Below, in pieces: positions 3,611 to 26,838 of a stretch of 64,000 nt of DNA. Source of the stretch: Escherichia phage vB_EcoM_ESCO49; sequence record OM386663.1. One strand, written 5' to 3'. The position numbers and the translations under genes were made by a program. The notes beneath the pieces were generated by a model. The model was not told the DNA's origin and did no database searches. It saw only the letters and a program-made list of their open reading frames with translations. Position 1 is the first letter of the stretch. Every line of letters starts with the position of its first letter.

Positions 3611-11641
<8,031 letters not shown>

Positions 11642-11642
<1 letters not shown>

Positions 11643-11881
11643 TACATTTTTCCTGCTCTTCTAAGTTCGTTGTAAGCAATTTCCTCTTTATACGACCTCT
11701 GAATCTCAAGAAATTGTCTCAATGATAATAAATCAGAGAATGTCATAGCAAAGAGTTGGTCAAGTGTTTCTTTACACCCTTCCATACCATAAATAGCAAG
11801 CACAAATTTCATCTCGTCTGCTTCTTCATAGGTTGCCTCTACAGCAGCATCAGTTAGTGGTGTCTGTAGAGTGTTACCCAT
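11642..11881 (-). CDS. tail assembly chaperone, frameshift-extension segment (GT-like)
   Basis: 79 aa ORF in the -1 frame relative to upstream chaperone; open frame continuous from slippery site at 11920-11926. Confidence 0.5.
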
Positions 11882-11883
11882 GT

Positions 11884-12282
11884 TTACTGAGAAGTTAGGC
11901 TTTTGAAAATGCTTGCTTCGAAAAAACTTCCGAAGTTTGCCTCCAGCGCAAATGCTAAGTAATCAATGAACTCACCATAGTTTGCTTGGAAGTACGTATC
12001 AATATTAAGTGGGAAGTCATCAACAGTTGCCCCTTGAAATAACAGGGTAGTCATTTCTTCAAGGTTAATTTCTTCAATTCTGTCAAAACAAGCTTCAACA
12101 AGCTCTTTAAATGGAACCGTCGGAGCTTCTTTCTTACCCTTGTCAGTCAGACTTGATAGCATCTGTGCAAAGGTTGGAACAACAACTTTACCCAACTTCA
12201 TAGACATCTTAATACCATCTCTTGCTCCAAGCAGAACGATATTTACTTTCTTACCATTAATTACTCTAGATTCTGTTTTCAT
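11884..12282 (-). CDS. tail assembly chaperone (G-like)
   Basis: 132 aa; canonical X_XXY_YYZ heptamer T_TTT_TTC in frame 12 codons before stop; precedes tape measure. Confidence 0.5.
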   Translation of the reverse strand: MKTESRVINGKKVNIVLLGARDGIKMSMKLGKVVVPTFAQMLSSLTDKGKKEAPTVPFKELVEACFDRIEEINLEEMTTLLFQGATVDDFPLNIDTYFQANYGEFIDYLAFALEANFGSFFEASIFKSLTSQ

Positions 12283-12310: not shown

Positions 12311-12343
12311 CAAAAAAGGGGAAGACCTTTTAAAGTCTCCCCC
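12311..12343 (-). terminator. rho-independent terminator
   Basis: GGGGAAGAC/GTCTCCCCC hairpin followed by U6 on minus RNA, after tube gene. Confidence 0.6.
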
Positions 12344-12355
12344 TTATAGGATTTA

Positions 12356-12802
12356 TTAAACACTTGACGCTGGAATTGTAGAAGTGTAGTCTAGCTTCTC
12401 ACAACCAAAAATCCAAGTTTTAGAGTTCTGGTCACGACCAAGTTCAATCTGTGGTAACTCCTGCAACCAAGCGTTAATACCAGTTGCCAGAACAGAGCCT
12501 GATGGGTCGTAGATTACGAAGTTAGAAGAGATTTCTTCTTCAAGTTCCATATTGTCTTGTTTAGCTTGAATTGCAGAAAGCATCTGGTTAGAGAGAGAAG
12601 TCTGCATTAACTCAATCTCAATAGTACCTGTCTTGTCTGCATTTCTTGTCAGAGCAACCTGACCACCTGCACCAACAACTGGTGTCACAAGTGGTGATGT
12701 TCTCTGTAGACGCAAGAATGAGTCTGGAGCAAAGCCTTCAATGGCAATACCATTCCAGCTACATACAACGTCTTTAGGGGAATATTGCTGATACATAGCC
12801 AT
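12356..12802 (-). CDS. putative tail tube protein
   Basis: 148 aa; between sheath-sized gene and chaperones. Confidence 0.5.
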   Translation of the reverse strand: MAMYQQYSPKDVVCSWNGIAIEGFAPDSFLRLQRTSPLVTPVVGAGGQVALTRNADKTGTIEIELMQTSLSNQMLSAIQAKQDNMELEEEISSNFVIYDPSGSVLATGINAWLQELPQIELGRDQNSKTWIFGCEKLDYTSTIPASSV

Positions 12803-12817
12803 TCCAATTTACCTCTA

Positions 12818-14170
12818 TTATTCGTAAGCCACTGTACCTTTCAAGTCAACATCCAAGATAGCCCCTGCTAAGATACCTGCGAAGGTAACGTCTTTCAGGA
12901 TACGTGCTTTCTTGTCTGCTAAAGCAACTTGAGAGGCTTTAGGAACATTAACTGTGTAAGATGACAGGAAGTTTCTGTTGACTGCTCTTTGCAGAGAGGT
13001 TTCAATGACTTGACGAATACGGGTAATACCAGTATCATCATAAGTAATCTTACCACCCTTCTGGTTAATTAGCAAGTCTCTCAGAGAAGTTTTCAGGTCT
13101 GATTCTAACCAGTCAACACCACGGATGATATCAATCCATTCCCCACCAGAAGTAATCCCTCTACGAACCACTGGAACACTACCATCAAGGTCAATAAAGT
13201 TACAGTGACGTGCATCTAAAGCAGACTTCTGAATACTTGTCAGAGGTCTCTGATTAGATGGTTGTAGAGAAGCTGCTACACCAGTTAGCTGAGCATTACC
13301 CCAAGCGATTGAACCTGCATCATATGGAGCACCATAAGCAATGTATGCCATTTCTGGGTAATCTTCTGCTGCTTCGTGATGCCACAAGCAAACTGTACGA
13401 GTGTACATATTCTTAGCAAGCTGTGCTGGAACATCATTTGCACTGGCTAATTCTGTCCCTTGCAGTGCTGCTACATCAGAGTTAGCTGTAAAGAAGATTT
13501 TCTTGCGAGCCTGAATCTCAGAAGCCATTGCTAAGACAAACTGTTGAGTTCTGTCTTCTGCTGCAATGAAATACCAGTCGGTAGAGTAAGCTTCAATAGC
13601 TGCCAGAGCAGTTGATGCTGTATCGGCAGTTGTACTTGCAATATATACAGTCTGTGCTGTGGTTGTTACTTTCACAAAGTCATTATCACCAGCTTTAGTA
13701 ATAATCATTGTGGCAGAACCACCACTACCAGTTACATTCACAGAAACCTTATCGTTGATTGTTGGGTCAGCTTCAATCTGTGTTTTAAACTGTTGCAAAA
13801 CTACATCAGCAGTATCTGAATCTTGTGCTGTATACTGGAATGGTTGAGAGATGCCACCACCAACAGCTACAGTAATTGAGTAGTCTGTACTTTCAGTAAC
13901 TTCATCATGAATTGATACAGTGTACTGCATAGTACGTCTACCAATATAAAGCTGAGTCACTTTAGGAGTCTGACTCCAAAGTTGTTTAGCAGCCTTATAT
14001 GCAGCAGTATTCTCATCGAAATCTTCAGCAACTTCAGTTAAGGAAGTGTAGCCACGAACTCTTTCTTCAAAGTTATCTGTTGAAGCTAAGAATAGTGGCA
14101 AACCAAAACCTTCTCTTGTAGTTCCTGCGGTGTTCAATGTAATATCTACATTAACAATTGGATTCCACAT
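12818..14170 (-). CDS. putative tail sheath protein
   Basis: 450 aa; sheath-tube-chaperone-TMP order typical of contractile tails. Confidence 0.5.
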   Translation of the reverse strand: MWNPIVNVDITLNTAGTTREGFGLPLFLASTDNFEERVRGYTSLTEVAEDFDENTAAYKAAKQLWSQTPKVTQLYIGRRTMQYTVSIHDEVTESTDYSITVAVGGGISQPFQYTAQDSDTADVVLQQFKTQIEADPTINDKVSVNVTGSGGSATMIITKAGDNDFVKVTTTAQTVYIASTTADTASTALAAIEAYSTDWYFIAAEDRTQQFVLAMASEIQARKKIFFTANSDVAALQGTELASANDVPAQLAKNMYTRTVCLWHHEAAEDYPEMAYIAYGAPYDAGSIAWGNAQLTGVAASLQPSNQRPLTSIQKSALDARHCNFIDLDGSVPVVRRGITSGGEWIDIIRGVDWLESDLKTSLRDLLINQKGGKITYDDTGITRIRQVIETSLQRAVNRNFLSSYTVNVPKASQVALADKKARILKDVTFAGILAGAILDVDLKGTVAYE

Positions 14171-23192: not shown

Positions 23193-23355
23193 GGAGAAAC
23201 CACAATGTACGTCAGAGACATACTGTATAAGTCTTCCTATAAAGTATAACTCTGTAAAAAAGCCCTGTCTAAAAATACTCTTCGGTAGCGAAAGGAAGAA
23301 TACTTATAGCAGGGCATTATTATTATTTTAATTGAGAGAGAGTAAAATAACTTGG

Positions 23356-23428
23356 AGAATCCGAAGGGACTTGAACCCTTATAAACCTGTTTTGCAGACA
23401 GGCACATATCCATTTCTGTCACGGATTC
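23356..23428 (-). tRNA. tRNA-Cys (GCA)
   Basis: acceptor 7 bp, T-arm AAGGG-TTCAAGT-CCCTT, anticodon stem CCTGT/ACAGG, loop CUGCAAA. Confidence 0.7.
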
Positions 23429-23436
23429 GAAATTGG

Positions 23437-23525
23437 GGGAAGATACCAGACTTGAACTGGTACACCGATTTCTCAGCTACTGGCAGTTTAGCAAACTGCT
23501 CCCTTACCTTTAGGGTTAATCTTCC
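23437..23525 (-). tRNA. tRNA-Ser (GCU), long variable arm
   Basis: 89 nt; T-arm, anticodon stem GCAGT/ACTGC, plus-strand loop TTAGCAA. Confidence 0.65.
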
Positions 23526-23526
23526 A

Positions 23527-24309
23527 TTATCTCTGTAATGCGCTCTTCATTTCTGGTGTTGCAATAGTATCAATCACACCAGTTTTACAAGCATCATCAA
23601 ACCAGTCTGGTAAGATACCTGCTAAGAACCCATTGATATTCGTTTTAAGGTACTCTGCAATAAGGGCAGCTTCTTCTTCAATCATCTGCACAACTTCATC
23701 TGCATAAGCTGTAATCTTTGAGATACCTTCATTAATCTTACTAACAGCCTGATTAGCTAAATCAGAAACAGTCTCAAGACCCTTATCAATAGCGTCTTGT
23801 AAGTCACTTAACACACCATTAACACTGTCTAGTGTGCTGTTAATCATGTCAATAGCTTGCTGACCATACTCTGTAGCAACACCCATAATACCACTAAATG
23901 GTGTACAACCAACTTGTTCTCCTGCTGCACCCATAACATTGGAGTATCCCTTTGCTACCTGCATACGTGATGAAAACTCATCAATAGACTTTTGACCGTA
24001 GTCTGTTAGGGTCTTAGTAGTTGCTGTAGTGCTTGTAAGGCTTGTTGTAAAGCTGTTTAGAAGGACTGTTGTGAGTCCAGCAGCAACAAGCTTCTCCTTC
24101 ATTGTAGGGTCTGTTACAGAGCTAATAGAGCTTACAAGTGATGTAGAGGCAGCTACGGTTCCACCGAGAACTGCTGCACCAGTAATAAGTGGGTTAGAAA
24201 ACCCTCTACCGGTTTTTAAGAGATTAAAAATCTCCTTACCTTGTTCTGTCATCTCTTTCATTAAGCACCTTTGAAATTGGTACTCCATATCGGATTCGAA
24301 CCGATACAT
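23527..24309 (-). CDS. hypothetical protein
   Basis: 260 aa; Ser/Thr/Ala-rich middle; embedded in tRNA region. Confidence 0.4.
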   Translation of the reverse strand: MYRFESDMEYQFQRCLMKEMTEQGKEIFNLLKTGRGFSNPLITGAAVLGGTVAASTSLVSSISSVTDPTMKEKLVAAGLTTVLLNSFTTSLTSTTATTKTLTDYGQKSIDEFSSRMQVAKGYSNVMGAAGEQVGCTPFSGIMGVATEYGQQAIDMINSTLDSVNGVLSDLQDAIDKGLETVSDLANQAVSKINEGISKITAYADEVVQMIEEEAALIAEYLKTNINGFLAGILPDWFDDACKTGVIDTIATPEMKSALQR

Positions 24310-24356
24310 AACACAGATTTTAAGTCTGGCCTCTCTGCCAATTGGAGTAATGGAGC
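24281..24356 (-). tRNA. tRNA, anticodon read as UAA (Leu-type), standard length
   Basis: acceptor GCUCCAU/AUGGAGU (G1-U72), T-arm ATCGG-TTCGAAT-CCGAT, 4 bp anticodon stem, loop CUUAAAA, A73. Confidence 0.5.
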
Positions 24357-24362
24357 ATTGGC

Positions 24363-24434
24363 TGGGGATGTTGGAATTGAACCAACTTCTTCGATTTCAA
24401 AGACCGAGGTTTTAACCTTGTAAACTAATCCCCT
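24363..24434 (-). tRNA. tRNA-Gln (UUG)
   Basis: T-loop TTCAATT; anticodon stem with one G-U; plus-strand loop TTCAAAG. Confidence 0.6.
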
Positions 24435-24442
24435 TTAAATCT

Positions 24443-25000
24443 TTACTTTCTCAGTGGATGAATAAAGAATGCCAACATAACTCTTTCCCTTGAGAATGCT
24501 CTTTCTTCTGGGACAACACTTTTTAGTTTCCATCCAATATAAATTCTCCAGTAAAACTGTTTACCAAAGATTTTAATTGATGGGATAAAAGCGAATAATC
24601 CCCAAGCATTGCTATTCCACATTAGGAGATAACCAGTCTGATTATCTTCAGGGTCAGAACTTACGCTGATATTACCTTTCCACTTAGTAACATCTTTTAC
24701 ATCTCTTCCTAATACATGGTAAGAGAAGTTATAAGCTTTGTTTCTCCAGAGCCATCCAACTCTCTGCATGTAGACACCCAGCTTACCAATCTTTCTAATC
24801 TTAGCCCATCTTTTAACGTGGCCTTCATCACCATCAATCGGGTTGTCATAGGTCTCCATCCATCTGAATCCAAAAGGTAGATGCCCTTTCTTCTCACTGT
24901 AGAATGGAACCACGAAAGGTGCTAAGATGACTGCTAGGGTTGCTGCAAATGGTTCTAGTAAAGCTAGGAAAATCCATGAAGCATACTTCAAATATCTCAT
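24443..25000 (-). CDS. hypothetical membrane protein
   Basis: 185 aa; hydrophobic N-terminus; between tRNA genes. Confidence 0.4.
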   Translation of the reverse strand: MRYLKYASWIFLALLEPFAATLAVILAPFVVPFYSEKKGHLPFGFRWMETYDNPIDGDEGHVKRWAKIRKIGKLGVYMQRVGWLWRNKAYNFSYHVLGRDVKDVTKWKGNISVSSDPEDNQTGYLLMWNSNAWGLFAFIPSIKIFGKQFYWRIYIGWKLKSVVPEERAFSRERVMLAFFIHPLRK

Positions 25001-25022
25001 CTAAATAGCCTCTTAAAATTGG

Positions 25023-25098
25023 TGTTCCAAGACGGATTCGAACCGTCACTAATACAAGGTTTGAGCTTGCATCCTCTGCCAATTGGGATACTGGAACA
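25023..25098 (-). tRNA. tRNA, anticodon read as CAA (Leu-type), standard length
   Basis: T-arm GACGG-TTCGAAT-CCGTC perfect; acceptor 7 bp with one G-U; loop CUCAAAC; A73. Confidence 0.5.
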
Positions 25099-25101
25099 TG
25101 G

Positions 25102-25173
25102 TACTCACTAAAGGACTTGAACCTTTTTCTTCATCTTGTAAGGGTGATGTTTTACCATATAAACTAAGCGAGT
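25102..25173 (-). tRNA. tRNA-Val (UAC), tentative
   Basis: T-arm AAAGG-TTCAAGT-CCTTT; D-arm GUUU-AUAUGGUA-AAAC; anticodon stem with one mismatch; plus loop TTGTAAG. Confidence 0.5.
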
Positions 25174-25271
25174 GTGAAAGAGGTCTGAAGTTGTGCCGCT
25201 AACTCAACTCCGTGGAATTTGTTACGGTCTTCAGTTGACACCAGCGGTCTTTCACTTGACCTCTGAATTGG

Positions 25272-25345
25272 TGCTGCTCACAGGACTCGAACCTGCATTT
25301 CCATCCTTACAAGGGATGTGTAATAGCCAATTATACGAAAGCAGC
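25272..25345 (-). tRNA. tRNA-Thr (UGU)
   Basis: perfect anticodon stem CATCC/GGATG, loop CUUGUAA; T-arm and acceptor present. Confidence 0.7.
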
Positions 25346-25354
25346 ATTATTTGG

Positions 25355-25426
25355 AGCATCCAGAGGGAATCGAACCCTCAACCTCAGTTTGGAAGACTGT
25401 AATTTTCCCGTTTAAACTATGGATGC
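25355..25426 (-). tRNA. tRNA-Gly (UCC)
   Basis: T-arm GAGGG-TTCGATT-CCCTC; acceptor perfect; loop CUUCCAA. Confidence 0.6.
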
Positions 25427-25435
25427 ACTAATTGG

Positions 25436-25508
25436 TGGAGAAGCAGGGAATTGAACCCTGTACTTAAGTTTGCAAAACTTATGTTTTAACCATGTAAACT
25501 ACATCCCC
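25436..25508 (-). tRNA. tRNA-Ala (UGC)
   Basis: anticodon stem TAAGT/ACTTA, loop UUUGCAA; acceptor GGGGAUG with G3-U70. Confidence 0.6.
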
Positions 25509-25517
25509 AATGTTTGG

Positions 25518-25590
25518 TACAGGTGGAGGGAATTGAACCCATCGTCTTACTGATTAAGAGTCAGCCGCATAACCATTTTGCTACACCTGC
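25518..25590 (-). tRNA. tRNA-Lys (CUU)
   Basis: plus loop TTAAGAG; acceptor 7 bp; T-loop TTCAATT with short GGG/CCC stem. Confidence 0.55.
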
Positions 25591-25600
25591 ATTAATTTGG

Positions 25601-25674
25601 TACACCTAGAGAGATTCGAACTCACACTGAGCAGATTCTAAGTCTGCTGCCTCTACCAGTTGGGCTATAGGTGC
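25601..25674 (-). tRNA. tRNA, anticodon read as UAG (Leu-type), standard length
   Basis: perfect anticodon stem GCAGA/TCTGC, loop CUUAGAA; acceptor 7 bp (G1-U72); D-loop with GG; A73; 5 nt variable loop. Confidence 0.55.
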
Positions 25675-25750
25675 ATTAAACCTTTTTAGAGAACTTCTAA
25701 GAACCTAAGCAACAAGGTTCCACAACAAGCCGTAATAACCTTAGAAGCCC

Positions 25751-25773
25751 TCTAAAAAGACCTAAAAAGGTCT
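25751..25773 (-). terminator. weak terminator-like hairpin (AGACC-n6-GGTCT plus U-run)
   Basis: 5 bp stem followed by UUUUAG on minus RNA. Confidence 0.3.
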
Positions 25774-25930
25774 TTGCATAGTCTTGTTTAATCCGGTGAC
25801 TAGAACCTTTGGAGAGCTTGATATTATCTCTTCTCCGTGACACCTGCTAGGTGCTTTATGAGTGTGTACGACAATACACGCGGGATACCAAAGCAACACC
25901 CTAATGAAGCTTGGCTTTAAATCTTATTAG

Positions 25931-26018
25931 GCGGTAAGTAAAGGAGTCGAACCCTCACCGTATCTCTACAGTGGCAACTGTTTTCAAGACAGTTTGGCTA
26001 CCATTAGCCGCTACCTAC
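25931..26018 (-). tRNA. tRNA-Ser (UGA), long variable arm
   Basis: 88 nt; anticodon stem AACTGT/ACAGTT 6 bp, plus loop TTTCAAG; acceptor 7 bp incl. one G-U. Confidence 0.55.
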
Positions 26019-26034
26019 CCCTAATAAGACTTTG

Positions 26035-26114
26035 GCATGGGACGGAGGAGTTGAACCCCTTTGAAACGGTGTTGGAAGCCGTTGCTCATGCCTTAGAGTC
26101 TTAACATCGTCCCA
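26035..26114 (-). tRNA. tRNA-like gene, identity unresolved (aberrant core)
   Basis: perfect 7 bp acceptor ATGGGAC/GTCCCAT, encoded CCA, T-loop TTCAACT; internal stem AACGG/CCGTT with 9 nt loop CUUCCAACA; extra nucleotides before D-arm. Confidence 0.4.
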
Positions 26115-26261
26115 TACTATAATTCGAAGCTTACCGTATTATCTCAACACTGTAAAGCCCCTTCTCAGATTATTTACATGTTCTGGAAAACATGAGATAC
26201 AGACCACCTCCCTACAGGAAGACCCGCTTAGGTCGTCTAAGTAATCTGCTAACTAAATTGG

Positions 26262-26340
26262 TCGAGGCGGCAGGACTCGAACCCGCATACTCCACTTACT
26301 CGGTTAACGTCTGTTTAGAAGACAGATGAGATACGCCCCG
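26262..26340 (-). tRNA. tRNA-like gene, identity unresolved (anticodon-like loop CUUCUAA, Arg-UCU-like, displaced)
   Basis: acceptor CGGGGCG/CGCCUCG all paired, T-arm GCAGG-TTCGAGT-CCCGC; perfect TCTGT/ACAGA hairpin sits where D-arm is expected. Confidence 0.35.
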
Positions 26341-26680
26341 TAATTATCTTTAAAGACTCTCTTAGAAAGCCCTTAAAGATGCCCACCTTATTAATCATAC
26401 CGTGGGCTAGTACGCCAAATTCTTTGATGAGGGATTGGAAGACCTCACTGGTGTTTAGCCTATCAAGCTACTGCCAGAAAAACATTGTCGTTTGCATTTA
26501 TTTTAAATTTGCAAAATAGACGCTACGCAACGAAAACTATTCAGAATATGTACAACAAATTTCCCCACATTGTGTTACGTCTAACGCTCATGTATTGGTG
26601 TTTGAATTATACATATTATGAAGTATTTTAGTTACTATAAAGTGGTCACATCTCAATGTCAACAACTTTATTGAAATTGG

Positions 26681-26753
26681 TACTGGTAGGTGGAATCGAA
26701 CCACCGACGTTCCCTTATCAGGGGAGTGTTATAACCTTCTTAACTATACCAGC
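26681..26753 (-). tRNA. tRNA-Ile (GAU)
   Basis: T-arm GGTGG-TTCGATT-CCACC perfect; plus loop TTATCAG. Confidence 0.6.
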
Positions 26754-26757
26754 TTGG

Positions 26758-26831
26758 AGGTTCAGATGGGAATCGAACCCACATTCATAGGGCTTATGAG
26801 ACCCTTGCATTACCTTATCTGCGACTGAACC
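26758..26831 (-). tRNA. tRNA with CAU anticodon (Met or Ile2)
   Basis: perfect acceptor GGTTCAG/CTGAACC; plus loop TTATGAG. Confidence 0.55.
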
Positions 26832-26838
26832 ATTTTGG

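What the first reader, a model, noticed from the sequence alone, without database searches (positions are those of the whole stretch)
11642..12282. Programmed -1 frameshift site in tail assembly chaperone
The 132-codon chaperone gene contains the canonical slippery heptamer T_TTT_TTC in its reading frame (plus-strand 11920-11926, about 12 codons before its stop). The -1 frame from that point is open through the start of the next 79-codon ORF, so slippage would give a longer fusion product. This matches the conserved G/GT chaperone arrangement upstream of tape-measure genes.
Basis: partly seen in the sequence, partly recalled or inferred. Interest (0 to 1): 0.45.

Follow-up and report, generated by a model that had tools for sequence, protein, structure and literature searches.

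The report
Felix O1-type tail chaperone frameshift site
This is the usual two-in-one tail assembly chaperone gene of a Felix O1-like phage, in which a few ribosomes probably slip back one base on a run of six U's to make a longer protein; it looks real and is strongly conserved, but it is already annotated and published for this phage family.

Summary
On the minus strand, a 132-codon gene (12282..11884) carries T_TTT_TTC in frame at 11926..11920 (Phe120-Phe121). The -1 frame is open from 11962 to the stop of the 79-codon ORF (11881..11642), so slippage would give a 213-aa fusion.

The window is a Felixounavirus (98.8% identical to phage ESCO56). The genes sit in the order sheath, tube, G, T, tape measure, and G matches Pfam Phage_TAC_15.

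One genome alone is weak evidence: the chance of a heptamer in the overlap is about 0.07. The comparative evidence is decisive:
- All 70 analysable related loci, down to 23% identity, keep an in-frame T_TTT_TTN at the same Ser-Phe-Phe/Leu position, followed by a long -1 extension.
- The downstream ORF has no Shine-Dalgarno sequence.
- Its ATG is absent in distant relatives.

I found no hairpin directly downstream. A GGAGG lies 13 nt upstream, and this element is conserved at synonymous sites across the family.

The frameshift is already annotated with the same junction in phages Mushroom, Moogle, Michonne and Maleficent, and was reported for the family Andersonviridae in 2025. I found no experiment that tests it. 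Verdict: real, ordinary and already known.

The parts
11884..12282 (-). G: short tail assembly (tape-measure) chaperone, 132 aa, the product of standard translation
   Evidence: ORF list. Pfam PF21822 Phage_TAC_15, E 1.8e-19, 71 bits against a cut-off of 22. phrog_1613 and phrog_3840 'tail assembly chaperone'. Own Shine-Dalgarno AAGGA, dG -6.1.
11940..11944 (-). Shine-Dalgarno-like GGAGG inside G (codons CTG GAG GCA), 13 nt before the heptamer; candidate upstream frameshift stimulator
   Evidence: Read from the sequence. Anti-SD duplex dG -9.3. The Glu codon is GAG in 18 of 21 clusters against 8.1 expected, and 17 of 20 against 5.9 with a codon-pair control. An SD-like motif lies in the stimulatory window in 19 of 23 clusters against 3.4 expected. 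The window and motif set are taken from PMC4066793.
11920..11926 (-). Slippery heptamer T_TTT_TTC (U_UUU_UUC), codons Phe120-Phe121 of G
   Evidence: In-frame register verified. Invariant in 10 annotated relatives and in 3 more distant ones. Present as T_TTT_TTN in 70 of 70 IMG/VR loci. U_UU.U_UU.C is listed as an efficient, under-represented shift motif in E. coli (PMC4066793).
11882..11962 (-). Stretch where the -1 frame is already open inside and just past G (the productive overlap); after the slip it encodes the linker RSKHFQKPNFSVN
   Evidence: Six-frame translation and frame analysis. The 16 nt AAGTTTTTTCGANGCA are invariant in 8 phages at 36-85% protein identity.
11642..11881 (-). T: the -1-frame C-terminal extension (79 codons from the ATG), most likely expressed only as the 213-aa GT fusion
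   Evidence: phrog_4963 'tail assembly chaperone', E 2.8e-55. No SD upstream, dG -0.1 against -5 to -12.6 for 14 neighbouring genes. Homologous to the ATG-less -1-frame peptide of Wc4-1, E 7e-9. The fusion proteins align end to end.
11827..11882 (-). Hairpin that begins 2 nt after the G stop codon and covers the T ATG, 37 nt downstream of the heptamer; role unknown, too far away to be a classical stimulator
   Evidence: MFE fold. 90.8% of cells paired and 5 pairs with compensatory changes in 13 Felixouna-/Susp-/Mooglevirus sequences; 0 of 500 shuffles reach the observed score. Not recovered in distant relatives.
9399..11642 (-). Tape measure protein gene; its start overlaps the T stop (TAATG)
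   Evidence: Pfam TMP_3. phrog_4036, 1510 bits.
12356..12802 (-). Tail tube-like virion structural protein gene, immediately upstream of G
   Evidence: Pfam KPP10_Orf10. phrog_280. The sheath gene at 12818-14170 is phrog_205.

Best explanation
Genes G (12282..11884) and T (11881..11642) are the tail assembly chaperone pair of a Felix O1-like myophage.

Proposed mechanism:
- Most ribosomes translate G to its stop and make the 132-aa chaperone.
- A minority slip one base backwards while the two tRNA-Phe sit on UUU-UUC of U_UUU_UUC (11926..11920).
- These ribosomes continue in the -1 frame through the linker RSKHFQKPNFSVN and the T ORF, and make a 213-aa GT protein.
- The slip probably relies on the intrinsically shift-prone heptamer, helped by a Shine-Dalgarno-like GGAGG 13 nt upstream that pairs with 16S rRNA in the elongating ribosome, as in dnaX and IS911. 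No downstream hairpin seems to be involved.
- By analogy with lambda, G and the G part of GT coat the tape measure protein, the T part recruits tube subunits, and neither protein ends up in the virion.

Shown here: the anatomy, the family assignment, the deep conservation of the heptamer, the -1 frame and the SD-like element, and the lack of start signals for T.

Inferred: that slippage happens, how efficient it is, that the SD-like element stimulates it, and what G and GT do.
For: - Anatomy.
- Gene order sheath, tube, G, T, TMP, and TAC family hits.
- The window is a Felixounavirus.
- Heptamer conservation: in frame in the overlap in Felixouna-, Susp-, Moogle- and Kolesnikvirus, Hafnia phage SarahDanielle and Pectobacterium phage Wc4-1; in Vequintavirinae and an Alteromonas myophage at 25-30% identity; in 70 of 70 IMG/VR loci down to 23% identity, with -1 extensions of 25-91 codons.
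- The U6 run is kept even where the second Phe has become Leu (TTTTTTA/G), so the nucleotides are selected and not only the amino acids. The codon-level null is about 1e-18.
- Phe120 and Phe121 are 2 of only 7 invariant columns in the G alignment.
- T cannot start on its own: no SD, no ATG in three genera, and ATA in L017.
- The T peptide is conserved in the -1 frame.
- SD-like element; the criteria come from PMC4066793.
- Motif efficiency in E. coli: PMC4066793.
- The same junction is deposited as a joined CDS. It is stated in PMC4319497, PMC5543628 and PMC12846349.
- The lambda G:GT model comes from PMC5009743.
Against: - I found no experimental detection of GT for any Felix O1-like phage.
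- There is no stimulatory structure within 60 nt downstream in this lineage (MFE -3.4 kcal/mol, z +1.17), so efficiency may be low.
- In Felixounavirus the T ORF does have an ATG 2 nt after the G stop, so some coupled re-initiation cannot be excluded.
- The SD-like element is absent in phiEa21-4, SarahDanielle and CR8, so it is not essential.
- The sequence clusters used for the statistics are not fully independent phylogenetically.
- The G model found no solved TAC structure.
Confidence: 0.9

Rival explanations
1. G and T are two independent genes. T would be translated from its own ATG (11881) by termination-reinitiation coupling to the G stop 2 nt upstream, and the heptamer would be incidental.
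For: An ATG lies 2 nt after TAA. Many GenBank records list two separate CDS. In one genome the heptamer alone has a chance probability of about 0.07.
Against: T has no Shine-Dalgarno sequence, dG -0.1 against -5 or stronger for 14 neighbours. The equivalent ATG is absent in phiEa21-4, SarahDanielle and Wc4-1, yet the -1 frame stays open from the heptamer. It is ATA in the Felixounavirus contig L017. The heptamer is conserved in 70 of 70 loci and at synonymous sites. A hairpin covers the ATG.
Confidence: 0.05
2. The long product would be made by transcriptional slippage. RNA polymerase would add one extra U on the T6 run, giving an mRNA in which G and T are in frame.
For: The site is a homopolymer run. 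One database genome, phage CL1, carries T7 at exactly this place with G and T fused in frame. This shows that a one-base insertion here gives the same protein.
Against: From general knowledge, and not tested here: efficient transcriptional slippage in bacteria needs runs of about 8-9 or more, and six is short. Selection keeps the run in the exact X_XXY_YYZ register of the zero frame in all 23 clusters. Polymerase slippage would not need that register. It would not need an SD-like element at ribosomal-stimulator spacing either.
Confidence: 0.04
3. The feature would be a chance coincidence, or a weak hairpin plus T-run acting as a transcription attenuator, with no recoding at all.
For: The terminator scan flags CTGGAGGCAAACTTCGG followed by AAGTTTTTTC at 11946..11930. 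In-frame heptamers are common in this AT-rich genome.
Against: The scan found 2 sites where shuffles give 1.1, so this is not significant, and the stem has only 6 pairs including G-U. A terminator would not require the codon register, nor a conserved and homologous 60-90-codon -1-frame extension.
Confidence: 0.01

Closest known systems
Phage lambda G/GT tail assembly chaperones (Levin et al. 1993; Xu, Hendrix and Duda 2004, 2013, 2014, as summarised in PMC5009743)
   Same: Two ORFs lie between the major tail/tube gene and the tape-measure gene. The second ORF is in the -1 frame. [quoted passage not shown] The predicted outcome is a short abundant product plus a rare C-terminally extended one.
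   Different: The heptamer is U_UUU_UUC rather than G_GGA_AAG. There is no detectable sequence similarity to lambda gpG; this G belongs to Pfam PF21822. The host phage is a contractile-tailed myophage, so T would recruit tube rather than siphophage tail protein. The product ratio and function have not been measured here.
Annotated frameshifted 'tape measure chaperone' of Salmonella phage Mushroom (AJF40599.1 / YP_009600435.1) and of Citrobacter phages Moogle, Michonne and Maleficent
   Same: These are the same gene family with the same heptamer and the same junction. My predicted fusion sequences for Mushroom and Maleficent are exactly the deposited proteins. The window's G-T region is about 98% identical in DNA to its closest Felixounavirus relatives.
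   Different: The window's own fusion differs by a few residues and is not in the protein collection. Most sister records, including RefSeq Felix O1, still list two separate CDS.
Conserved GTTTTT -1 PRF motif in TAC-N genes of Vandenendeviridae and Andersonviridae (Pseudomonas phage Adele paper, PMC12846349, 2025)
   Same: It reports the same motif near the 3' end of TAC-N in 231 Andersonviridae phages, the family that contains Felixounavirus, and uses the same comparative argument of an uninterrupted -1 frame.
   Different: The passages I read mention neither the upstream SD-like element nor the hairpin over the T start. My scan also covers Vequintavirinae, Myoalterovirus and uncultivated relatives.
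E. coli dnaX and IS911 -1 frameshift signals
   Same: A slippery heptamer sits with a Shine-Dalgarno-like sequence upstream, within the 6-17 nt spacing shown to be stimulatory (PMC4066793).
   Different: dnaX and IS911 also use a downstream stem-loop, and none is found here within 60 nt. The heptamer differs. Stimulation by the GGAGG is inferred from conservation and was not tested.

Membership tests
G/GT-type tail assembly chaperone pair with programmed -1 frameshift (Xu, Hendrix and Duda 2004) | Two small ORFs located between the major tail/tube gene and the tape-measure gene | tested here: met
   The order is sheath 12818-14170, tube 12356-12802, G 11884-12282, T 11642-11881, TMP 9399-11642.
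G/GT-type tail assembly chaperone pair with programmed -1 frameshift (Xu, Hendrix and Duda 2004) | The downstream ORF is in the -1 frame, and that frame is open back into the 3' end of the upstream ORF | tested here: met
   The -1 frame is open from 11962 to 11642, a 25-codon overlap with G.
G/GT-type tail assembly chaperone pair with programmed -1 frameshift (Xu, Hendrix and Duda 2004) | A slippery X_XXY_YYZ heptamer in the zero frame inside the overlap | tested here: met
   T_TTT_TTC at 11926..11920, codons 120-121. The motif is shift-prone in E. coli (PMC4066793).
G/GT-type tail assembly chaperone pair with programmed -1 frameshift (Xu, Hendrix and Duda 2004) | The arrangement and slip site are conserved in relatives despite sequence divergence | tested here: met
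   13 annotated phages and 70 of 70 IMG/VR loci down to 23% identity. The codon-level null is about 1e-18.
G/GT-type tail assembly chaperone pair with programmed -1 frameshift (Xu, Hendrix and Duda 2004) | The downstream part has no independent translation start | tested here: inconclusive
   There is no SD. The ATG is absent in three genera and is ATA in L017. This window does keep an ATG 2 nt after the G stop, so coupled re-initiation is not excluded.
G/GT-type tail assembly chaperone pair with programmed -1 frameshift (Xu, Hendrix and Duda 2004) | The fusion protein is actually made at a fixed low ratio to the short protein | not testable with these tools
   This needs a reporter assay, western blot or mass spectrometry. 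No such data were found in the literature searches.
G/GT-type tail assembly chaperone pair with programmed -1 frameshift (Xu, Hendrix and Duda 2004) | Both products are needed for tail assembly and are absent from virions | not testable with these tools
   This needs genetics and virion proteomics.
Pfam PF21822 Phage_TAC_15 | Score above the curated gathering threshold | tested here: met
   71 bits against a cut-off of 22, E 1.8e-19, covering residues 9-124.
SD-stimulated bacterial -1 PRF signal (dnaX / IS911 type) | [quoted passage not shown] | tested here: met
   GGAGG at 11944..11940, 14 nt before base 2 of the heptamer. The element is conserved in 19 of 23 clusters against 3.4 expected.
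SD-stimulated bacterial -1 PRF signal (dnaX / IS911 type) | A downstream stem-loop or pseudoknot a few nucleotides after the motif | tested here: not met
   The 60 nt downstream fold at -3.4 kcal/mol, z +1.17. There is no conserved consensus structure. The nearest conserved hairpin starts 37 nt away. Pseudoknots were not modelled.

The most novel reading that the evidence does not exclude
The frameshift cassette of this whole chaperone family (Pfam PF21822: Felix O1-like, rV5-like and many uncultivated myophages) may be a fixed two-part signal. An internal Shine-Dalgarno-like GAGG/GGAGG, held at synonymous sites, lies about 13 nt upstream of an invariant U6N run and would stimulate slippage without any downstream structure. 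In the Felix O1 lineage, a covarying hairpin over the T start codon may in addition suppress independent initiation of T. The family-wide heptamer is already published. The SD-like stimulator and the hairpin do not appear in the papers I read.
Probability: 0.4. Interest if true: 0.3.

Novelty: already known. Interest (0 to 1): 0.15.

Why it matters
For annotation, G and T should be recorded as one gene with two products, a 132-aa G and a 213-aa GT joined by a -1 slip. They should not be listed as two 'hypothetical' or 'chaperone' CDS. Many Felixounavirus records, including RefSeq Felix O1, still split them, and some leave the T part unannotated.

For biology, the site adds no new principle. 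It is a very clean, deeply conserved example of the G/GT strategy in contractile-tailed phages.

The conserved upstream SD-like element is a cheap hypothesis to test. It could explain how a downstream-structure-free site reaches a useful frameshift rate. Felix O1-like phages are used in diagnostics and therapy, so correct tail-gene models have some practical value.

Tried and rejected
- Downstream stimulatory structure: the 60 nt after the heptamer fold no better than shuffles. RNAalifold on 8 phages found no conserved downstream helix. It proposed a hairpin that includes the heptamer itself (CUUCGGAA/UUUCGAAG). That hairpin is broken in phiEa21-4 and SarahDanielle, and it would be melted inside the ribosome at the moment of slippage, so I rejected it as a stimulator.
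- Search for the fusion protein among homologues: the word-based search returned only 132-aa G proteins. The exact-sequence look-up succeeded instead.
- Solved structures: the profile search of the PDB gave nothing, best E 0.97.
- Structure model: an AlphaFold2 model of G (pLDDT 79.7) had no significant Foldseek match in the PDB, best E 0.73.
- BLASTP of T against the Alteromonas phage -1 peptide found nothing, although the two align in the multiple alignment.
- Literature searches for experimental proof in Felix O1-like phages found none. The Vladimirov et al. 2022 paper on T4-like chaperones is not held.
- A weak terminator-like hairpin just before the T-run was considered and rejected as not significant.

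Full report
**1. What is in the sequence**

The region is transcribed on the minus strand.
- A 132-codon ORF runs 12282..11884 and ends in TAA.
- Two bases later, an ATG at 11881 opens a 79-codon ORF that ends at 11642. Its stop overlaps the start of a 747-codon ORF (TAATG).
- The reverse complement of 11920-11926 is TTTTTTC. Position 11925 is the first base of codon 120, so the run reads AG**T TTT TTC** in the G frame. This is exactly the X_XXY_YYZ register, on Phe120-Phe121, with 11 sense codons before the stop.
- The -1 frame is open from 11962, 25 codons before the G stop, through the ATG of the next ORF to its stop.
- A -1 slip on the heptamer therefore gives a 213-aa protein: G residues 1-121, the linker RSKHFQKPNFSVN, and the 79-aa ORF.

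**2. What the locus is**

The window is a Felix O1-like myophage.
- The 1.5 kb around the site is 98.8% identical to Escherichia phage vB_EcoM_ESCO56. It matches 294 phage records, mostly Escherichia and Salmonella Felixounavirus.
- The genus belongs to Ounavirinae, family Andersonviridae.
- The gene order is sheath (phrog_205), tube-like structural protein (Pfam KPP10_Orf10), G, T, tape measure protein (Pfam TMP_3; phrog_4036, 1510 bits).
- G matches Pfam PF21822 Phage_TAC_15 at 71 bits against a cut-off of 22. T matches phrog_4963 'tail assembly chaperone'.

**3. Is it more than chance?**

Within this genome alone, the evidence is weak.
- In-frame canonical heptamers are common: 51 in about 17,000 codons.
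- The chance of at least one in a 25-codon overlap is about 0.07.
- Among the 51, the G/T heptamer gives the longest -1 extension, 80 codons past the zero-frame stop.
- The only comparable case is a C_CCA_AAC at 35569 on the plus strand. It simply runs into the next gene through an ordinary ATGA overlap.

The comparative evidence is what decides the question.
- T_TTT_TTC is invariant and in frame, inside the overlap, in Felix O1, Mushroom, SUSP1, HP1, Maleficent, phiEa21-4, SarahDanielle and Wc4-1. Their fusion proteins are 36-85% identical to this one.
- The same holds at 25-30% identity in Cronobacter phage CR8, Escherichia phage 24-2-1 (both Vequintavirinae) and Alteromonas phage PT11-V22.
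- An IMG/VR scan seeded with the G alignment returned 71 loci. All 70 that could be analysed carry T_TTT_TTN at the homologous Ser/Cys-Phe-Phe/Leu position inside the -1 overlap. The -1 extensions are 25-91 codons, and the +1 extensions are mostly short.
- Where the second residue has become Leu, the codon is TTA or TTG, so the U6 run survives. The nucleotides are under selection, not only the amino acids.
- Using local codon usage, the chance that all 23 sequence clusters have an NNT codon followed by TTT is about 1e-18. This treats the clusters as independent, which overstates the significance somewhat.
- Phe120 and Phe121 are two of only seven invariant columns in the G alignment.

**4. Can T be made on its own?**

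Probably not.
- The 19 nt upstream of the T ATG pair with the anti-SD at -0.1 kcal/mol. Fourteen neighbouring genes give -5.0 to -12.6.
- The equivalent ATG does not exist in phiEa21-4, SarahDanielle or Wc4-1, although the -1 frame is open from the heptamer onwards. GenBank leaves that stretch unannotated in phiEa21-4 and Wc4-1.
- One 87-kb Felixounavirus contig (L017) has ATA instead of ATG.
- The T peptide is conserved as protein in the -1 frame. Against the ATG-less Wc4-1 peptide, BLASTP gives E 7e-9. The predicted fusions align end to end with a shared CKETL..L..M(T/P)F motif.
- This window does keep an ATG 2 nt after the G stop, so a little coupled re-initiation cannot be excluded.

**5. 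How it most likely works**

- U_UU.U_UU.C is among the efficient -1 shift motifs measured in E. coli. It is used by IS elements and is under-represented in E. coli genes (PMC4066793).
- Both codons are read by tRNA-Phe. The phage's 19 tRNA genes in the window include no tRNA-Phe, so the host tRNA would do the slipping.
The 60 nt after the heptamer fold at -3.4 kcal/mol, z +1.17, and RNAalifold finds no conserved downstream helix.
- Across the 23 clusters, the downstream 60 nt do tend to be more structured than a control region (mean z -1.35 against -0.14). The Felix O1 cluster is not (z +0.73).
- A GGAGG lies at 11944..11940, 13 nt before the heptamer. [quoted passage not shown]
- This element arises from the codons Leu-Glu-Ala (CTG GAG GCA) and is preserved beyond what the protein needs:
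  - The Glu codon is GAG in 18 of 21 clusters against 8.1 expected from local usage (P about 2.5e-6).
  - It is GAG in 17 of 20 against 5.9 after controlling for the following G.
  - An SD-like motif occupies the stimulatory window in 19 of 23 clusters against 3.4 expected at other in-frame positions.
- The element is missing in phiEa21-4, SarahDanielle and CR8, so it is not indispensable.
- I therefore infer a heptamer plus upstream-SD signal, dnaX/IS911-like but without the downstream hairpin. The stimulation itself is untested.
- The functional model comes from lambda as reviewed in PMC5009743 and is an analogy here. In that model G and GT bind the tape measure, T recruits tube subunits, the ratio is about 30:1, and neither protein is in the virion.

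**6. Rival explanations**

- Independent translation of T: see section 4.
- Transcriptional slippage on T6: the run is short. Polymerase slippage would require neither the codon register nor an SD-like element at ribosomal spacing.
- A weak hairpin plus T-run flagged by the terminator scan at 11946..11930: not significant, and it cannot explain the conserved -1-frame protein.

**7. What is already known**

- The frameshift is deposited as a joined CDS in Salmonella phage Mushroom and Citrobacter phage Maleficent.
- My independently predicted fusion sequences for Mushroom and Maleficent are exactly AJF40599.1/YP_009600435.1 and the Michonne/Maleficent protein. Moogle has a 212-aa counterpart. 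The junction is therefore the same.
- The genome announcements of Moogle (2015) and Mijalis (2017) mention it.
- A 2025 paper on Pseudomonas phage Adele reports an invariant GTTTTT motif near the 3' end of TAC-N in Vandenendeviridae and in 231 Andersonviridae genomes.
- Many records still list two CDS: RefSeq Felix O1, ESCO56, skuden, SUSP1, HP1 and SarahDanielle.
- I found no experimental demonstration for this family.

**8. Side observations**

- Phage CL1 (OK040806) has seven T's at the site, so G and T are fused in frame and annotated as one 213-aa protein. This is either a homopolymer sequencing error or a GT-only variant.
- A hairpin at 11882..11827 begins 2 nt after the G stop and covers the T ATG. 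It shows 90.8% pairing and five pairs with compensatory changes among 13 Felixouna-, Susp- and Mooglevirus sequences. It starts 37 nt after the heptamer, too far for a classical stimulator. It might mask the T start.
- A strong terminator-like hairpin lies between the tube gene and G (12345..12316).

**9. Verdict**

The feature is ordinary for tailed phages and already known for this family, so interest is low (0.15). The only possibly new details are the synonymously conserved upstream SD-like element across PF21822 chaperones and the hairpin over the T start.

Noticed in passing
L005 (Escherichia phage CL1, OK040806.1) 656-663; homologous to window 11926-11920: CL1 has T7 instead of T6 at the slip site. 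G and T are therefore one in-frame 213-aa ORF, annotated as a single 'tape measure chaperone'. This is either a homopolymer sequencing error or a natural GT-only variant.
   Followed up: partly
window 11827-11882 (minus strand): A hairpin (inner stem CUCUACAG/CUGUAGAG, outer stem CAUGGGU/ACCUAUG) begins 2 nt after the G stop and covers the T ATG. Among 13 Felixouna-/Susp-/Mooglevirus sequences, 90.8% of cells are paired and 5 pairs show compensatory changes. It is not found in distant relatives. It might mask the T start codon.
   Followed up: partly
L017 (IMGVR_UViG_3300045988_004167) about 1602-1604; homologous to window 11881-11879: In this 87-kb Felixounavirus contig the start codon of the T ORF is ATA instead of ATG, while the heptamer and the -1 frame are intact.
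   Followed up: partly
window 12316-12345 (minus strand), plus the T-run to about 12306: A strong intrinsic-terminator-like hairpin (13 pairs, then TTTTTGTTTCT) lies between the tube gene stop and the G start. It could lower transcription of the chaperone and tape-measure genes relative to the sheath and tube genes. One relative (KhF3) annotates a terminator here.
   Followed up: no
window 23353-27708 (minus strand): A cluster of 19 tRNA genes, typical of Felix O1-like phages. None is tRNA-Phe, so the two slipping tRNAs at the heptamer would be the host's.
   Followed up: no
window 35568-35574 (plus strand), ORF 35045-35629 and ORF 35626-35844: This is the only other in-frame heptamer in the window with a long -1 extension. 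It is a C_CCA_AAC 19 codons before the stop, and the next 72-aa gene follows through an ATGA overlap. It is probably a coincidence of ordinary translational coupling.
   Followed up: no
P0088 (Buttiauxella noackiae, 1.88-Mb contig) and P0099 (Staphylococcus hyicus assembly): G-type chaperones of this family appear in bacterial assemblies. One is a 45%-identical copy on a large Buttiauxella contig, possibly a prophage or tailocin-like element. The other is in the same 90%-identity cluster and sits in a Staphylococcus hyicus assembly, probably contamination.
   Followed up: no
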